Positions 31,221 to 58,870 of a stretch of DNA of 64,000 nucleotides are shown one piece after another (within the stretch, counting starts at the first letter, position 1; each line of letters opens with the position of its first letter). The stretch is taken from IMG/VR virus record IMGVR_UViG_3300020576_004053, positions 79,152 through 143,151 of that record; one strand, 5' to 3'. Below the pieces are notes generated by a model. It did no database searches, was not told the DNA's origin, and saw only the letters and a program-made list of their open reading frames with translations. This DNA is from a virus (taxonomy: Duplodnaviria > Caudoviricetes). The position numbers and the translations under genes were made by a program.

Positions 31221-32915
31221 TTAGAAATCTCCACGGATGAAATCGGACATAATGGATGGTGCAGCCGAATCGAACCCGACCACATCCATCATTCCAAAGT
31301 CGTTAGGATCTGCGATAGTAAAACCGTTAGAAACTAAACCAACAACTACCGACTTTGCTGGAATGCCCATTTCCTTCCGATACTTGTTCAACGCCTGTAC
31401 TGGCTGCATCCGACCCGCATACGTCTCGTTGTCAGTATACACCACAAACGCGTCAAGCTCAACCTTGTTCTTCAATGCCCACAGGAACGGCAGTGAGCAA
31501 TCCGTACCACCGAAATCCAACCCTTCGGTCAAGTTCACCACATCGTCCAACCGCTGACGGTGTGAGAACGGCAATTCGGTAATACCATCACCTGACCGTG
31601 CTGACGTGAACCCAGACCGCTTACCGCCACGGTTAAACGAATATCCACCACTCGTGAAACCTGCGATCACATAATCCTTTTCCGTGCGCATCGTCATCAT
31701 TGCCATCGCCGCCGACGCCATGCGCGGAGACAACCCGATCACGCCACCCACCTCACCACCCGTCATTGAACCGGACACGTCTAGGAACAGGCCGATACGC
31801 TTTCCCGTAGGAATCACGTTCTGGAATGCCACATAGAACAGTTCGTCCAATGCATCGATGATGGACGGGGTTGGGGTCCACACGTTGTTACCACGCTGAC
31901 CACGACCGGCACGATACGTCAAGAGCGCCGTCAACACCTGAATTGGGTGAATACGATCCTTCTTCACCTTCTCCACATCGCCCAACTTCGCGATGACATC
32001 CTTCGCACCTGACGACATCGGCCCGATCAAACCAACCCGAGTCATCGTCGCCAAGTTACGAACCAGTGCCGTCGTGCCCATGTGTGGCAGCAACGATTCC
32101 CAAACTGCCTTCGTGTTCAGCAACTCCGTAGGAATCACTTCACGTGGCAACTTGTGGGCTTCGATCAACTTCACCGCAGCCGTCACATCCTTTTCCGTCA
32201 ACTTCTTGATTTCATCCACTGCCGCAATGAAATCTGCCACGTCGGTATCGATGACCAATTCCTTGGCACCCTTACCCGTCACGTCTGCAAACAGCGCATC
32301 GTGCGTATCCGTTGCGGGCTTGACGTGCGCCAACCGCAATACGTCCTTGTGCGTCCAGCCATCACGGTTGGCATACTTCACCAACTGATGAGCCAACTGC
32401 ATCGGCGTCTTCTCGTTGTACCAAGCCGCAAAGGCACGACGGATACCACGTCCCCACGTCGCCATGCCGTTGATGTAGTCGGCAAGGTGGAGCACATGCG
32501 TTCCGATACGAGCGACCTTCGGAAGCGCAATATATGCCGCTCGCTTGGCCTCGTCCGTACCATGCGCCATCACCATCGCCAACGCAAACAATGCAGGATC
32601 GTTCTTCGGCGCACGACCGGCTTCCGACAGTTCAACGATGCGGTTTACCACACGCACGCCATCTGCCGCGATTGCACGCATCACTGCCGCTGCGTTTTCC
32701 TTGGTCAACTTCTGTTCAGAAGCGTAATACGATCCACCTTCTGAACCAAGAATCAGGAATCGATCCAGTCGTGAAAAATCCGACACCGAGAAGACCACGC
32801 CACCAGCCGAGTTCTTCACCATATCCTTCTCACGACCCTTGATTGCCTGAGTCTGCGGGGTTACTGCATTGGCACGAACTCGCGTCTGTGCCGTCTTCGA
32901 ATACGTCTTTGCCAT
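31221..32915 (-). CDS. rsr: Ro60/Rsr TROVE-domain RNA-binding protein
   Basis: NSAGG..RLDRFLILGSEGGSYY; KYANRDGWTHKD; ALVRNL; vWA DVSGSM, GGTD, YTDNET; promoter TTGACA-17-TAGGTT (32970-32998). Confidence 0.95.
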   Translation of the reverse strand: MAKTYSKTAQTRVRANAVTPQTQAIKGREKDMVKNSAGGVVFSVSDFSRLDRFLILGSEGGSYYASEQKLTKENAAAVMRAIAADGVRVVNRIVELSEAGRAPKNDPALFALAMVMAHGTDEAKRAAYIALPKVARIGTHVLHLADYINGMATWGRGIRRAFAAWYNEKTPMQLAHQLVKYANRDGWTHKDVLRLAHVKPATDTHDALFADVTGKGAKELVIDTDVADFIAAVDEIKKLTEKDVTAAVKLIEAHKLPREVIPTELLNTKAVWESLLPHMGTTALVRNLATMTRVGLIGPMSSGAKDVIAKLGDVEKVKKDRIHPIQVLTALLTYRAGRGQRGNNVWTPTPSIIDALDELFYVAFQNVIPTGKRIGLFLDVSGSMTGGEVGGVIGLSPRMASAAMAMMTMRTEKDYVIAGFTSGGYSFNRGGKRSGFTSARSGDGITELPFSHRQRLDDVVNLTEGLDFGGTDCSLPFLWALKNKVELDAFVVYTDNETYAGRMQPVQALNKYRKEMGIPAKSVVVGLVSNGFTIADPNDFGMMDVVGFDSAAPSIMSDFIRGDF

Positions 32916-32999
32916 TGTTACGTACCTCCCAATCAAGGGGGTAAAGGGTTTGTACTACGTTGATACTGCAACCTACACACTATTATGTAATCTGTCAAG

Positions 33000-33118
33000 T
33001 GGAGATGATGGGAATCGAACCCAAAGCAGTCTTTTGTTCAGAAAGATAACGCTCCAAAAGTCGTACCGTTGCCGGTCAAGTTATATTAGAACGGTTTTAC
33101 CGCGTAACCTACATCCCC
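33000..33118 (-). ncRNA. tRNA-like Y RNA (Yrl-type) with Ala identity elements
   Basis: GGGGATG/CATCTCC-A acceptor, D and T arms; anticodon arm replaced by TTGACC-GGCAAC-GGTACGA Ro-site stem plus GTTATC. Confidence 0.8.
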
Positions 33119-33135
33119 TTGATTTTCCTACGATA

Positions 33136-33600
33136 CTACTCCGCCGATCCTGCACGATAATTGTTCGGATTGCACCATGTCAAGGTCTGCGTGTGACAAT
33201 TAGGACAAAGCCATCGCAGATTTTCTTTTCGGTTATCGCGATAATTACCGTTTATATGATCAAGCTGTAGCTTCAATTCCATCCCGCGATGTTCACCTTT
33301 GTTTTCACACCATGCACAACAGTACGGAATCGCACGTTTTGCAAAAATGCGCAAAGTAGCCTGTGCTACACGCTTCGAATCTGTAAACACATCCTCATCG
33401 GATAGCCTCTGCCGTCTTTGCCCACGTGTCAAAAAATGGCTCGTATCTATCCCCAATATAGCGATGCGCTCTTTTACTCGCCGGTAATTACTTGTACCAT
33501 CAGAAAGACCGAGTGCATACAACACGTCTCTGACGGTTTTCTGTCCGTCGACTGCACTAATCAGTTGTTCGTCTGACCACTTTCTCTTTGAACCTCGCAT
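33136..33600 (-). CDS. HNH homing endonuclease
   Basis: LQLDHINGNYRDNRKENLRWLCPNCHTQT. Confidence 0.9.
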   Translation of the reverse strand: MRGSKRKWSDEQLISAVDGQKTVRDVLYALGLSDGTSNYRRVKERIAILGIDTSHFLTRGQRRQRLSDEDVFTDSKRVAQATLRIFAKRAIPYCCAWCENKGEHRGMELKLQLDHINGNYRDNRKENLRWLCPNCHTQTLTWCNPNNYRAGSAE

Positions 33601-33681
33601 TTATTCTCTCCTTAAAATAGTGAGAATAAATAGTACGATTCAAATTCAAACGACAAGTTAGTTCGAACCTATGCCCGTTTT

Positions 33682-33933
33682 TTACCACGACTTTAAATTC
33701 GAAAACTCTTCCACCGTCATATCACCCACTAACACCTCAAACGCGGCATAATCAAACTGCTCTCGTAGAAATGCATACAACGATCTACCCGAGTCTTCCG
33801 TGAACTCTTCCTTTGTCGCTTCCATCACCAGCTTAAACACTTTTTCTATGTTTGTGGTATGGAACCATCCTTGGCGAACTATCCGCTTAAAGATATAACG
33901 CAACACCCAGATTTGAAATTTTGATATCATCAT
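33682..33933 (-). CDS. Hypothetical protein
   Basis: 83 aa, coupled. Confidence 0.6.
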   Translation of the reverse strand: MMISKFQIWVLRYIFKRIVRQGWFHTTNIEKVFKLVMEATKEEFTEDSGRSLYAFLREQFDYAAFEVLVGDMTVEEFSNLKSW

Positions 33934-34412
33934 AGTTGGATCGATGCGACCGGTGTTGCAGTATCAGGATAAAAGATAGCTTGTTTATAGCCTCGCACAA
34001 GCCCCCGTTTTACTCTATACTTTCGAATGAGGAAATCCGCCCGACGAAGTACATTCAACTCTTGGTCGTCGCTCCACCATGCATATAATTGGGAAAGTGA
34101 ATCAAACCCAAATACCGTCGTTTGCCATGCCATCGGATGGTTATATACCCATTCTCTGAGCAATGGATCTGCCGCTATTCCCGGTCGTTTCCACTTAAAT
34201 CCAGCATGTACCCTTTTGTTATGTTTAGACGGCAACTGATTGAACGGTTCATGGGTTATTGTAATATCCATGAATTTCCGAGCATCATCTGAATCTATCG
34301 TCGATGCAAACGTACAATTCGTTGCCCATGCATACGGACCCACTTTCACACACGTATGCCGTAACTGAATCATACGATGTTCTACCCGATATACACTTCC
34401 AGATTCTAACAT
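33930..34412 (-). CDS. Hypothetical protein
   Basis: VYRVEH..GPY; FGFDSLSQL..WW; start at MLESG. Confidence 0.65.
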   Translation of the reverse strand: MLESGSVYRVEHRMIQLRHTCVKVGPYAWATNCTFASTIDSDDARKFMDITITHEPFNQLPSKHNKRVHAGFKWKRPGIAADPLLREWVYNHPMAWQTTVFGFDSLSQLYAWWSDDQELNVLRRADFLIRKYRVKRGLVRGYKQAIFYPDTATPVASIQL

Positions 34413-34414
34413 AG

Positions 34415-34542
34415 TGCCAGCGGAGGGAATTGAACCCCCGACCACCCCTGTTTGATAGGATAACGAATCTCAGGGCGTACCGTTGCCGGTCAAGGTTGTA
34501 GAAATTCGGTTTTTAGGTGCTCTACCACTGAGCTACACTGGC
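34415..34542 (-). ncRNA. tRNA-like Y RNA (Yrl-type)
   Basis: GCCAGTG/CGCTGGC acceptor, canonical D and T arms; insert TTGACCGGCAACGGTACG...GTTATC. Confidence 0.8.
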
Positions 34543-34650
34543 GTTGAACTACATATATAGCGACCATCTTTCCCAAACGATCACCCTACTCCCCATCCAC
34601 ATATATTGTCATGTTCGGATGGACGTTCGCATGGGACAAACTTTCCTTCA

Positions 34651-58370: not shown

Positions 58371-58385
58371 AAATTGTCAAAAAGC
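58371..58385 (-). promoter_or_regulatory. boxA-like antitermination element
   Basis: GCTTTTTGACAATTT, identical to the copy at 31097-31111. Confidence 0.5.
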
Positions 58386-58395
58386 TTTACTACAG

Positions 58396-58471
58396 TCCGC
58401 GCAGTAGGAGTTGAACCTACGAATTTTTCGGATATCAGCCGAATGCCTTAACCGGACTTGGCCATACGCGG
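58396..58471 (-). tRNA. tRNA-Ile(GAT)
   Basis: TTCGG-CTGATAT-CCGAA. Confidence 0.9.
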
Positions 58472-58485
58472 AAAATCAACTACAG

Positions 58486-58559
58486 TCGGAGTGGTGGGAA
58501 TCGAACCCACCTGATGCCTTCATCCCAAATGAAGTGGCCAACCTTTAGCCCACACTCCG
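58486..58559 (-). tRNA. tRNA-Pro(TGG)
   Basis: CTTCA-TTTGGGA-TGAAG; C1-G72. Confidence 0.9.
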
Positions 58560-58560
58560 A

Positions 58561-58598
58561 AAACAAAAAACCCGTACATCTGACCTACGATATACGGG
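58561..58598 (-). terminator. Intrinsic terminator of a putative attenuator
   Basis: CCCGTATATC-8 nt-GATGTACGGG-TTTTTTGTTT. Confidence 0.8.
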
Positions 58599-58626
58599 GA
58601 ACCTTCAACCACCTTGGAAGAATCTG

Positions 58627-58749
58627 TTAAACGATTCCTCCCCCCGTCACTCCATGAAACCGATCCGCACGCGACACAATATGCTTTGCCGGTGACCATG
58701 CAAAGCTAATATTCTGTTGTGGTTGCGGGTAACGATACGTGGACGACAT
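58627..58749 (-). CDS. Putative leader peptide (40 aa)
   Basis: AGGA SD; MSSTYRYPQPQQNISFAWSPAKHIVSRADRFHGVTGGGIV*; late-promoter-like CTACTTATA at ~58775-58783. Confidence 0.6.
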   Translation of the reverse strand: MSSTYRYPQPQQNISFAWSPAKHIVSRADRFHGVTGGGIV

Positions 58750-58812
58750 GGGTAGTTCCTGAAAGGGCTATGCGTATAAGTAGTGTGAACTGCGAAAAAA
58801 GCGACGAAATGA

Positions 58813-58870
58813 TGGTCAAATCGGGGGTGACACCGGTTATTTTACAGGATAACGATGTCTAATCGTACCA
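58813..58870 (-). ncRNA. Short Y RNA-like element
   Basis: TGGTACGA..GACATCGTTATC...GGTGTC...TTTGACCA. Confidence 0.72.

What the first reader, a model, noticed from the sequence alone, without database searches (positions are those of the whole stretch)
31221..58870. One Ro60 with at least seven Y-like RNAs in two architectures
Seen: the bulged Ro helix (GGU(C/A)CG / UUGACC) plus a shared GUUAUC motif recurs in short RNAs at 34946-35009, 56090-56150, 56474-56549 (variant) and 58813-58870; 56560-56642 has the canonical helix without GUUAUC. A permuted form (UUGACC-GGCAAC-GGUACG) replaces the anticodon arm of full tRNA bodies at 33000-33118 and 34415-34542. The 33000 RNA has G3.U70 and A73, the AlaRS identity set. 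Known: bacterial Rsr binds Y RNAs, some of them tRNA mimics, that tether it to effectors such as PNPase. Inference: a family of interchangeable adaptors, one possibly alanylated and able to bring Ro60 to EF-Tu or ribosomes.
Basis: partly seen in the sequence, partly recalled or inferred. Interest (0 to 1): 0.75.

Follow-up and report, generated by a model that had tools for sequence, protein, structure and literature searches.

The report
Phage Ro60 with tRNA-shaped Y RNAs
A large uncultured phage that carries its own Ro60 protein also encodes eight small partner-type (Y) RNAs, three of them built as complete tRNAs with the Ro60-docking arm grafted in with its strands swapped, and one of these keeps the marks cells use to attach alanine; I did not find this wiring in the Y RNA papers I could search.

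Summary
The window is the end of a 143-kb phage contig with one Ro60 gene, 32 tRNAs and a tmRNA.

- **Stem-loop Y RNAs.** My covariance models find exactly five on the contig.
- **tRNA-bodied RNAs.** There are exactly three.
- **Wiring.** The inserted module is an exact circular permutation of the stem-loop Y RNA. It keeps the bulged Ro helix, here closed by a GNRA cap, the same internal loops, the upper stem and the G-UUAUC/AAAAC junction.
- **Conservation.** Six related phage lineages fetched through Ro60 (57-93% identity) carry two to four such RNAs just upstream of Ro60. Each sits in a tRNA body, and the stems covary.
- **Alanine marks.** RNA B keeps G1-G4/C69-C72 with G3:U70 and A73 in three orthologs, while pairs 5-7 change with compensation.
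- **Not decoders.** Anticodon-like loops differ between orthologs, so these are not decoding tRNAs or simple intron-bearing tRNAs.

Most likely all eight are Ro60 ligands, and the tRNA-shaped ones are matured like tRNAs. Binding, expression and charging are untested.

I found no paper describing this layout. This scan has noted the same layout before on other DNA.

The parts
31221..32936 (-). Ro60 (TROVE + vWA_Ro60) gene. The database protein P0001 has 564 aa, which implies an ATG start near 32915. It is the only TROVE gene on the 143-kb contig.
   Evidence: Pfam PF05731 2.7e-38 and PF25045 6.9e-56. Matches PDB Ro60 chains 9nen, 1yvp and 2nvo at E 1e-113 to 1e-117. Single locus in G000.
33000..33118 (-). 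tRNA-shaped Y RNA 'B'. Acceptor stem GGGGAUG/CAUCUCC with G3:U70 and A73; no regular D stem. Permuted Y module: CGUUCUAA - UUGACCG-GCAA-CGGUACGA - UUGGAGCG-UUAUC. Then a hairpin UCUUU-CUGAACA-AAAGA and a T arm. It ends 64 nt upstream of the Ro60 open reading frame listed by the ORF listing.
   Evidence: R1 62.9 bits. Rfam tmRNA tRNA-like ends 27.7 bits, below the gathering score. Orthologs L032:4678-4796 and L033:9629-9756 keep pairs 1-4 and A73, while pairs 5-7 covary.
33154..33183 (-). Promoter-like site (TTGACA-18-TATCGT) about 30 nt upstream of RNA B.
   Evidence: Consensus scan. The number of promoter-like sites in the region is at shuffle level, so this is a lead only.
34415..34542 (-). 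tRNA-shaped Y RNA 'A'. Acceptor GCCAGUG/CGCUGGC with A73 and a normal D arm. AAAAAC, then the permuted module (CGAAUUUC - UUGACCG-GCAA-CGGUACG - GAGAUUCG-UUAUC). Then a hairpin UCCU-AUCAAAC-AGGG and a T arm.
   Evidence: Rfam tRNA 47.9 bits with a 69-nt insert. R1 67.4 bits. Ortholog L032:4134-4261.
tRNA-Leu-like body (3-bp D stem, A73) with an intact anticodon stem CCUGU/ACAGG. The loop carries the module with a divergent helix: UUUGCUCGGG-GUAA-CCUGAGACGU, upper stem GGUGAUC/GAUUAUC, then GUUAAC.
   Evidence: Rfam tRNA 46.5 bits with a 56-nt insert. R1 54 bits. In orthologs L033:9317-9448 and L035:9464-9606 the same RNA carries that genome's standard helix.
34945..35009 (-). Stem-loop Y RNA 1 (GCGGUACGA...UUUGACCGCA; GGGUUAUCC after the upper stem). 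It ends 4 nt before W, so RNase P cleavage at W's 5' end would set its 3' end.
   Evidence: R2 71.1 bits. Fold z-score -4.0. Orthologs L032:3394-3456 and L033:9246-9310.
35018..35046 (-). Promoter-like TTGCGC-17-TAGATT ending 8 nt before Y RNA 1. It is kept as TTGCGT-17-TAGATT in L032 and TTGACA-17-TACGTT in L033.
   Evidence: Read from the sequences. Inference; the consensus scan did not list it.
56089..56150 (-). Stem-loop Y RNA 2 (GCGGUACG...UUUGACCGCA; CGUUAUCU). It lies 4 nt upstream of tRNA-Arg(UCG).
   Evidence: R2 65.1 bits. Fold z-score -3.4.
56474..56549 (-). Stem-loop Y RNA 3, with a compensated helix GAUCCGA/UUUGGUC inside a 9-bp outer stem, and CGUUAUCU. It lies just upstream of tRNA-Ser(UGA).
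   Evidence: R2 53.6 bits. Fold.
56560..56642 (-). Stem-loop Y RNA 4, with the canonical animal-type helix UGGUCCGA/UUUGACCA. It has GUUCUC in place of GUUAUC. It sits in tandem with Y RNA 3, just after tRNA-Trp.
   Evidence: R2 53.7 bits. Fold z-score -6.2.
58811..58871 (-). Stem-loop Y RNA 5 (GUGGUACGA...UUUGACCAUC; CGUUAUCC).
   Evidence: R2 60.8 bits. Fold.

Best explanation
All eight RNAs are most likely ligands of the phage Ro60, that is, Y RNAs built from one module in two connectivities.

The module has four parts: (1) the bulged Ro helix GGU(A/C)CGA over UUGACC, with an invariant G.U pair; (2) a small asymmetric internal loop; (3) a 7-8 bp upper stem; (4) a junction in which the G of GUUAUC closes the stem, with UUAUC on one side and AAAA(N)C on the other.

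In the five stem-loop RNAs the Ro helix is formed by the RNA's own ends. In the three tRNA-shaped RNAs the same module is circularly permuted. The Ro helix is closed by a GNRA cap or a short hairpin, and the open side of the module is joined to a tRNA body: at the D-stem/anticodon-stem junction in A and B, and within the anticodon loop in W.

The mature ends of these three RNAs are therefore tRNA ends. Host RNase P, a 3' tRNA-trailer nuclease (RNase Z is my guess) and the CCA-adding enzyme would cut them out of the tRNA-rich transcripts. The same RNase P cuts would release the neighbouring stem-loop Y RNAs.

Once bound, each RNA would gate Ro60 or tether it to a partner. The tRNA body would play the part that the tRNA-like domain plays in bacterial YrlA, but with a free acceptor end. 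RNA B carries the complete acceptor-stem identity set for alanyl-tRNA synthetase and is probably chargeable.

Shown here: the sequences, the folds, the permutation relationship, the conservation and covariation, and linkage to Ro60. Inferred: binding, processing, charging and the downstream effector.
For: - Ro60 is present and single on the contig.
- Helix motif: 3 exact matches against 0.22 expected.
- Models built from the two forms find exactly 5 and 3 copies on the 143-kb contig and nothing else strong.
- Stem-loop alignment: 91.5% of cells paired, 10 of 15 pairs change on both sides, 0 of 500 shuffles reach the covariation score, the G.U pair is invariant in 20 of 20 and the closing G-C in 19 of 19.
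- Permuted alignment: 9 of 15 pairs change on both sides, 0 of 500 shuffles.
- Caps vary as G-GCAA-C, A-GUGA-U, A-GCAA-U, G-GCGA-C and G-GAAA-C, so the closing pair covaries and the GNRA loop is kept.
- Sequences not used to build R1 hit at 37-62 bits. They lie 270-740 nt upstream of Ro60 in L037, L038 and L039, and each sits in a body with a 7-bp acceptor stem and a T arm.
- The helix variant GGUACGA/UUUACC restores the canonical register, with an A-U pair in place of C-G and a bulged C. It occurs in both the stem-loop and the permuted forms of the same genomes (L033, L037, L039).
- The 3' trailers of the three RNAs (A73 followed by CUU or CUA) resemble those of many true tRNAs here, and no tRNA gene encodes CCA.
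- RNA B: G3:U70 is otherwise found only in tRNA-Ala among the 31 tRNAs tabulated. Read from the Rfam alignment, the phage tmRNA acceptor also has it. GGGG/CUCC plus A73 is invariant in three orthologs while pairs 5-7 change with compensation.
- Precedent: M. smegmatis YrlA is cut by RNase P and receives CCA in vivo (PMC4201824).
Against: - No expression, binding or charging data exist; the phage is an uncultured metagenomic contig.
- Rfam YrlA and Y_RNA models do not hit any of the eight RNAs at E up to 10.
- Six of the eight have a bulged A or an A.G mismatch where animal Y RNAs have C, and W has a divergent helix in this genome.
- Four stem-loop copies lie 23-26 kb from Ro60.
- Single-sequence fold z-scores for the tRNA-shaped RNAs are weak (-1.3 to -1.7).
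- The G3:U70 set is restricted to the closest subclade: the corresponding RNA in L038 has G3:C70. It rests on three orthologs, so inheritance rather than selection is not excluded.
- No CCA-adding enzyme is encoded on the contig, which is 79% complete.
Confidence: 0.78

Rival explanations
1. The three long RNAs are genuine decoding tRNAs with an intron-like insert. The Y module is cut out, with or without help from Ro60, to give tRNA-Trp(CCA) from W and other tRNAs from A and B.
For: A and B keep a 4-5 bp hairpin with a 7-nt loop and U at loop position 2.
Against: - The loop is not conserved. W orthologs read CCCAAUAU, CCCAAC and AAAUAAAU and lack U33.
- The anticodon-like triplet differs between close orthologs: CAA against CAU in A, and GAA against AAU in B.
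- The window already has tRNA-Trp (56648-56724) and tRNA-Phe (56155-56228).
- The insert in A and B lies at the 26/27 junction, which is not a known intron site (my own knowledge).
- No RtcB is found on the contig, and bacteria are not known to have the splicing endonuclease (10.1101/312249).
- B combines an alanine acceptor stem with a Phe-like loop that has C at position 37.
Confidence: 0.07
2. The shared module binds something other than Ro60, for example a host nuclease, another phage protein or a processing factor of the tRNA arrays. On this reading its resemblance to the Ro helix is convergent or incidental.
For: The UUAUC/AAAAC junction is as conserved as the helix, and it persists in L030, where the helix differs (GGGCCGAAG/CUUGCUCG). 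Four copies lie far from Ro60. There is no Rfam hit.
Against: The helix matches the Ro60 site of animal Y RNAs base for base in 56560-56642. Every relative was retrieved through Ro60 alone, and each carries the RNAs directly upstream of that gene. A second partner at the junction is compatible with the main explanation, because Y RNAs act as tethers.
Confidence: 0.08
3. The tRNA-shaped RNAs act mainly as decoys or sensors for host defences that cut or modify tRNAs. Ro60 would mark, protect or dispose of the damaged decoy.
For: The phage invests heavily in translation repair: 32 tRNAs, a tmRNA, an RF-1-like protein and a PARP-domain protein next to Ro60. Relatives add Tpt1, Pth2, RNase T, Macro and NADAR genes. 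Bacterial Ro60 loci are linked to RNA repair (PMC7824862).
Against: The evidence is purely contextual. The anticodon loop, the usual target of such nucleases, is absent or unconserved in these RNAs.
Confidence: 0.07

Closest known systems
YrlA (Y RNA-like A; Rfam RF02553) of bacteria and actinobacteriophages (Chen et al. 2014, PMC4201824; Wang et al. 2018, 10.1101/312249)
   Same: A Ro60-binding module is joined to a tRNA-like domain with T and D arms through the anticodon-stem side. It is encoded beside Ro60. The M. smegmatis form is cut by RNase P and receives CCA.
   Different: YrlA has its ends at the Ro helix and a loop-closed acceptor stem ('lacks a free CCA end'). Here the ends are at a 7-bp acceptor stem and the Ro helix is loop-closed, which is the opposite permutation. 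The helix is the two-stranded animal or Deinococcus type, not the GNCGAAN0-1G single-strand motif. The RF02553 model gives no hit.
Animal and Deinococcus-type Y RNAs (for example human Y4; D. radiodurans Yrn1)
   Same: The five stem-loop RNAs have both strands of the bulged helix GGUCCGA/UUGACC formed by the RNA ends, an internal loop and an upper stem. GUUAUC follows the upper stem about 10 nt after the helix, as in the human Y4 fragment GGCUGGUCCGAUGGUUAGUGGGUUAUCAG printed in PMC5331234.
   Different: They are much shorter (60-83 nt) with a small apical loop. The bulge is mostly A. They sit inside phage tRNA arrays. The Rfam Y_RNA model gives no hit.
Thermus phage phiLo Ro60 with Yrl1 and Yrl2 (PMC12135203)
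   Same: A phage-encoded Ro60 has more than one phage-encoded Y-like RNA upstream of the gene. Binding to Ro60, and a Ro60-Yrl-PNPase complex, were shown there.
   Different: As described in that paper, the phiLo RNAs are stem-bulge-stem RNAs with a CGAA motif. The passages I read report no tRNA-bodied or permuted form, and two RNAs rather than eight.
tmRNA tRNA-like domain and tRNA-Ala acceptor minihelix
   Same: RNA B has G1-C72, G2-C71, G3.U70, G4-C69, A73 and a T arm, and in this genome lacks a D stem. The Rfam tmRNA model aligns its two ends (27.7 bits).
   Different: It has no mRNA-like reading frame or pseudoknots, and the score is below the gathering cut-off of 47. The L033 ortholog has a normal D arm, so the tmRNA likeness is superficial. 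A complete tmRNA is encoded elsewhere (19661-20011).

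Membership tests
Y RNA (Ro60-associated RNA) | Bulged helix matching the Ro60-binding consensus (GGUCCGA over UUGACC) | tested here: met
   Exact in 56560-56642. GGUACGA/UUGACC in five copies, a compensated GAUCCGA/UUUGGUC in one and a divergent helix in W. The G.U pair is invariant in 20 of 20 aligned relatives.
Y RNA (Ro60-associated RNA) | The Ro helix is formed by the 5' and 3' ends of the RNA | tested here: inconclusive
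   Met for the five stem-loop RNAs. Not met for A, B and W, where a GNRA cap closes the helix. The true RNA ends have not been mapped.
Y RNA (Ro60-associated RNA) | Encoded with a Ro60/Rsr gene | tested here: met
   One Ro60 gene on the contig. Four RNAs lie within 2.1 kb upstream of it and four lie 23-26 kb away. The same linkage is seen in L032-L039.
Y RNA (Ro60-associated RNA) | Physical binding to Ro60 | not testable with these tools
   Needs EMSA or RIP with the phage Ro60.
Y RNA / YrlA as curated in Rfam (RF00019, RF02553) | Match to the family covariance model | tested here: not met
   No Y_RNA hit. The only YrlA hit (20.8 bits, E 0.56) spans two adjacent tRNAs at 55887-55953.
YrlA | tRNA-like domain with T and D arms attached to the Ro module through the anticodon-stem side | tested here: met
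   Rfam tRNA 47.9 and 46.5 bits for A and W. T loops read UUCGAUU, UUCAAUU and UUCGACU. GG is present in the D loops.
YrlA | Loop-closed acceptor stem, with the RNA ends at the Ro-binding stem (circularly permuted tRNA) | tested here: not met
   The layout is the opposite: an open 7-bp acceptor stem with a discriminator base and a capped Ro helix.
Decoding tRNA | Seven-nucleotide anticodon loop with an anticodon conserved among orthologs | tested here: not met
   Loops differ between orthologs: CAA against CAU, GAA against AAU, and CUCCAAU against CCCAAC.
AlaRS substrate (tRNA-Ala identity) | G3:U70 with A73 and G1-C72, G2-C71, G4-C69 in a 7-bp acceptor stem stacked on a T arm. That these are the identity elements is from my own knowledge of the E. 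coli AlaRS literature. | tested here: met
   RNA B and its orthologs in L032 and L033. Among the 31 tRNAs tabulated in the window, only tRNA-Ala shares G3:U70.
AlaRS substrate (tRNA-Ala identity) | A mature 3' CCA end and actual charging | not testable with these tools
   CCA is not encoded in any tRNA gene here, so it would have to be added by the host enzyme.
tmRNA | mRNA-like tag reading frame and pseudoknots between the tRNA-like ends | tested here: not met
   Only the ends align, at 27.7 bits against a gathering score of 47, with 68 nt in place of 312 model positions.

The most novel reading that the evidence does not exclude
Some of the tRNA-shaped Y RNAs are aminoacylated in infected cells: B by AlaRS, and perhaps the tRNA-Leu-like W by LeuRS. 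From my own knowledge, neither of these synthetases reads the anticodon. A Ro60 particle would then carry a charged acceptor end. That end could couple Ro60 to EF-Tu or stalled ribosomes, or let the particle sense the host's charging and tRNA-damage state.
Probability: 0.2. Interest if true: 0.9.

Novelty: new variant of a known kind. Interest (0 to 1): 0.7.

Why it matters
Ro60 and its Y RNAs are conserved from bacteria to humans, yet what the tRNA-like part of bacterial Y RNAs does remains unknown.

These phage RNAs are the missing opposite wiring: a Y RNA with real tRNA ends. That makes several open questions directly testable.
- Do Y RNAs use the tRNA maturation machinery?
- Can a Y RNA be aminoacylated?
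- What binds the tRNA-shaped domain?

The exact permutation relationship, together with tandem stem-loop Y pairs in the same genomes, bears on how Y RNAs and tRNAs are related in evolution. One Ro60 with eight partner RNAs points to a set of adaptors rather than a single cofactor. The G-UUAUC junction recurs at the same position in human Y4, which hints at a second ancient recognition element.

Tried and rejected
- **Exact-pattern scan.** Scanning IMG/VR for the 18-mer with small degeneracy gave 25 hits, and 24 of them lie in what read as ordinary coding sequence. The one exception is the variable arm of a tRNA-Ser (L005), probably by chance.
- **Looser three-block pattern.** Only 1 of 240 loci passed a structural filter: L053, a giant-virus contig. 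These scans therefore say nothing about distribution.
- **Sequence search of cultured phages.** Megablast and blastn against 50,697 phage records found nothing for the region or the module.
- **R1 on whole records.** It found no tRNA-shaped copy in Sinorhizobium phage Phosso or in the records behind L030 and L031. R2 found two stem-loop candidates in Phosso.
- **Rfam YrlA and Y_RNA.** No hits.
- **tmRNA reading of B.** Rejected: only the ends align, and the L033 ortholog has a D arm.
- **Intron reading.** Rejected as the main explanation (see rival explanations).
- **RNA at 56245-56376.** It has a T-arm-like hairpin and GGCGAAAGG, and I considered it as a ninth, YrlA-like Y RNA. I could not support that: there is no bulged helix, no model hit, and the fold z-score is only -1.95.
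- **Co-variation of the helix with Ro60 lineage.** I looked for a strict rule and did not find one: L035 mixes UUGAC and UUUACC types.

Full report
**Setting**

The window is the last 64 kb of a 143,151-bp IMG/VR virus record estimated to be 79% complete. All genes discussed here are on the minus strand.
- ARAGORN finds 30 tRNAs and a tmRNA.
- Rfam adds tRNA-type hits, including two of 128 nt with large inserts.
- The ORF at 31221-32936 is a Ro60. It matches Pfam TROVE and vWA_Ro60, and it matches human, Xenopus and Deinococcus Ro60 chains in the PDB at E 1e-113 to 1e-117.
- It is the only TROVE gene on the contig.
- The closest cultured relative of this Ro60 is that of Sinorhizobium phage Phosso, at 47% identity.

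**The observation**

- GGUACG, 30-60 nt, then UUGACC occurs three times against 0.22 expected; no shuffle of 100 reaches three.
- 56642-56560 has the animal-type helix UGGUCCGA/UUUGACCA.
- 56549-56474 has GAUCCGA/UUUGGUC, which keeps every pair of that helix.
- The 18-mer UUGACCGGCAACGGUACG occurs twice, inside RNAs that score as tRNA (34415-34542, 47.9 bits) or align to the tRNA-like ends of tmRNA (32997-33118, 27.7 bits).
- A third long tRNA hit, 34813-34940 (46.5 bits, 56-nt insert), was not in the finding.

**One module, two connectivities**

A stem-loop Y RNA reads, 5' to 3': GGUACGA, 2-4 nt, upper-stem 5' strand, G-UUAUC, a short loop ending AAAA(N)C, upper-stem 3' strand, 5-8 nt, UUUGACC.

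The inserts in the tRNA-shaped RNAs read: AAAAC, upper-stem strand (for example CGAAUUUC), 5-8 nt, UUGACCG, GCAA, CGGUACG(A), 2-4 nt, upper-stem strand (GAGAUUCG), UUAUC.

This is the same element opened at the apical loop and closed at the termini by a GNRA tetraloop. Loop sizes and the position of GUUAUC are preserved. GUUAUC alone is not enriched in the window; what matters is its fixed position.

The RNA at 56560-56642 has GUUCUC at that position.

**Counts**

- Model R1, built from the permuted module, finds exactly three copies on the whole contig: B at 62.9 bits, A at 67.4 and W at 54.
- Model R2, built from the stem-loop form, finds exactly five, at 53.6-71.1 bits.
- R1 also gives a weak hit of 17.3 bits across the junction of the tandem pair 56642-56560 and 56549-56474. 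Similar junction hits occur across stem-loop Y copies in L035. A tandem duplication is therefore a simple route to the permuted form.

**Relatives**

Ro60 homologues of 57-93% identity were traced to their contigs. Every one carries the RNAs just upstream of Ro60 on the same strand.
- L032 (93% identity) has a stem-loop Y RNA and four tRNA-shaped ones. The fourth ('b', 4540-4660) is absent from the window, where extra ORFs including an HNH endonuclease gene (33136-33600) lie between A and B.
- L033 (69%) has one stem-loop Y RNA and three tRNA-shaped ones.
- L035, L037, L038 and L039 (57-60%) have two or three tRNA-shaped ones each.
- The hits in L037, L038 and L039 were not used to build R1. 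They score up to 62.5 bits, and each lies in a body with a 7-bp acceptor stem and a T arm.

Covariation is clear.
- In the stem-loop alignment 91.5% of cells pair and 10 of 15 pairs change on both sides. No shuffle of 500 reaches the observed score, and sliding the partner by one column drops pairing to 39-45%.
- In the permuted alignment 9 of 15 pairs change on both sides, again with 0 of 500 shuffles.
- The cap varies as G-GCAA-C, A-GUGA-U, A-GCAA-U, G-GCGA-C and G-GAAA-C, or as a 4-5 bp extension.
- In L033, L037 and L039 the 3' strand is UUUACC. With GGUACGA this gives the canonical register: four pairs, a bulged C, then two pairs, with A-U in place of C-G. The variant occurs in both stem-loop and permuted copies of those genomes.

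**Where the module sits**

In A, B, 'b' and their relatives, UUA is followed by a 4-5 bp hairpin with a 7-nt loop that has U at its second position. Examples are UCUUU-CUGAACA-AAAGA and UCCU-AUCAAAC-AGGG.

This hairpin is a remnant of the anticodon arm, so the module emerges at the junction of the D stem and the anticodon stem. In W the 5-bp anticodon stem is intact and the module fills the loop.

The loop triplets are not conserved between close orthologs (CAA/CAU; GAA/AAU; CUCCAAU/CCCAAUAU/CCCAAC). The window has its own tRNA-Trp and tRNA-Phe, and no RtcB is encoded. I therefore reject decoding or splicing as the main reading.

**Acceptor ends**

- None of the tRNA genes encodes CCA. The three RNAs have the same kind of trailer (A73 followed by CU) as many true tRNAs here.
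- No CCA-adding enzyme is on the contig, so the host enzyme would be needed.
- Among the 31 tRNAs tabulated, only tRNA-Ala has G3:U70. Read from the Rfam alignment, the tmRNA acceptor has it too.
- RNA B has GGGG/CUCC with G3:U70 and A73. Its orthologs in L032 and L033 keep these five positions while pairs 5-7 change (A-U, U-A, G-C; U-A, A-U, G.U; U-A, C-G, G-C).
- From established knowledge, an acceptor helix with G3:U70 suffices for AlaRS. B is therefore a credible substrate, but the more distant L038 RNA has G3:C70.
- W has a 3-bp D stem and a D loop like the phage tRNA-Leu. Its orthologs in L035, L037, L038 and L039 have a long variable arm. This Leu-like body is suggestive only.

**Transcription and release**

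- A promoter-like TTGCGC-17-TAGATT ends 8 nt before Y RNA 1, and equivalent hexamers are kept in L032 and L033.
- Y RNA 1 ends 4 nt before W, Y RNA 2 ends 4 nt before tRNA-Arg, and Y RNA 3 ends just before tRNA-Ser. RNase P cuts would therefore define their 3' ends.
- These points are inference.

**Literature**

- Chen et al. 2014 (PMC4201824) describe YrlA in more than 250 bacteria and phages as a Ro module plus a tRNA-like domain. They also report that M. smegmatis YrlA is cut by RNase P and receives CCA.
- Wang et al. [quoted passage not shown]
- The phiLo study (PMC12135203) shows a phage Ro60 binding two stem-bulge-stem RNAs and PNPase.
- None of the papers returned by my full-text searches describes a Y module inside a normal-topology tRNA.
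- The human Y4-derived fragment printed in PMC5331234 has GGUCCGA followed 10 nt later by GUUAUC, the same arrangement as in the phage RNAs. I regard this as a lead.

**Earlier notes of this scan**

Other readers and follow-up agents recorded the same layout in other phages and in a giant virus, and on this genome. I treated these as leads.
- I confirmed the three-copy count for this genome.
- I tested the intron idea and found the anticodon loop is not conserved.
- I met one giant-virus example of my own, L053.

**Verdict**

The best reading is a repertoire of Ro60 partner RNAs in two topologies, with the tRNA-shaped ones matured as tRNAs and one probably chargeable with alanine. I put this at about 0.78 for the core claim and about 0.2 for a functional aminoacylated state. 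It is a new variant of the Y RNA/YrlA kind.

Noticed in passing
window 56155-56228 (-): A tRNA-Phe(GAA) with a C.C mismatch at the base of the anticodon stem. ARAGORN and the first Rfam pass missed it. It scores 37.7 bits when the short stretch is searched alone.
   Followed up: partly
window 56245-56376 (-): An unassigned RNA of about 130 nt lies between tRNA-Ser and tRNA-Phe. It has a perfect 10-bp terminal helix (CGGGUACGGC/GCCGUACCCG), GGCGAAAGG just inside it, and a T-arm-like hairpin GAUGGGUUCGAUUCCCUUC. It has no Rfam hit and a fold z-score of -1.95.
   Followed up: partly
window 30640-31225 (-): The stretch between Ro60 and the PARP gene is strongly structured (z -5.5). A long hairpin followed by a U run sits right after the Ro60 stop, then about 300 nt of stems that contain CGUUAUC at 31065-31071. 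It has no Rfam family.
   Followed up: partly
L035 12631-13003 (+): A relative phage carries an RNase P RNA-like sequence about 1 kb downstream of its Ro60. It scores 85.5 bits on bacterial class A, below the gathering score of 100.
   Followed up: no
window 29238-30470 (-): A PARP catalytic-domain protein is encoded next to Ro60. A PARP gene also lies near Ro60 in L033, together with Macro, NADAR, RF-1, RNase T and Pth2 genes.
   Followed up: no
window 33136-33600 and 35083-35787 (-): HNH endonuclease genes are interspersed with the Y RNA genes. The window lacks the fourth tRNA-shaped Y RNA that L032 has between A and B (L032:4540-4660). In the window that interval holds extra ORFs, including an HNH gene.
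   Followed up: partly
window 34650-34809 (-), compared with L032 3593-4096: A small Cys-rich ORF starts 3 nt after W. In the window it is cut short by a stop codon and lacks roughly 330 nt that the 167-aa L032 version has.
   Followed up: no
L053 about 4760-4900 (+), giant-virus contig GVMAG-M-3300021961-61: A tRNA-like gene carries a hairpin-capped UUGACC...GGUCCG helix followed by CGUUAUC and a T arm. It was the only structurally credible hit among 240 pattern matches.
   Followed up: partly
Sinorhizobium phage Phosso PV764938.1, 420438-420499 and 420666-420734 (+): Two stem-loop Y RNA candidates (R2 27.7 and 31.4 bits) lie in a cultured jumbo phage, 130 kb from its annotated Ro-like gene. 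No tRNA-shaped copy was found.
   Followed up: partly
L005 about 536 (-): A tRNA-Ser(UGA)-like gene has a long variable arm that reads UUGACCGGAAACGGUCCG, a capped Ro-type helix. This is probably chance.
   Followed up: no
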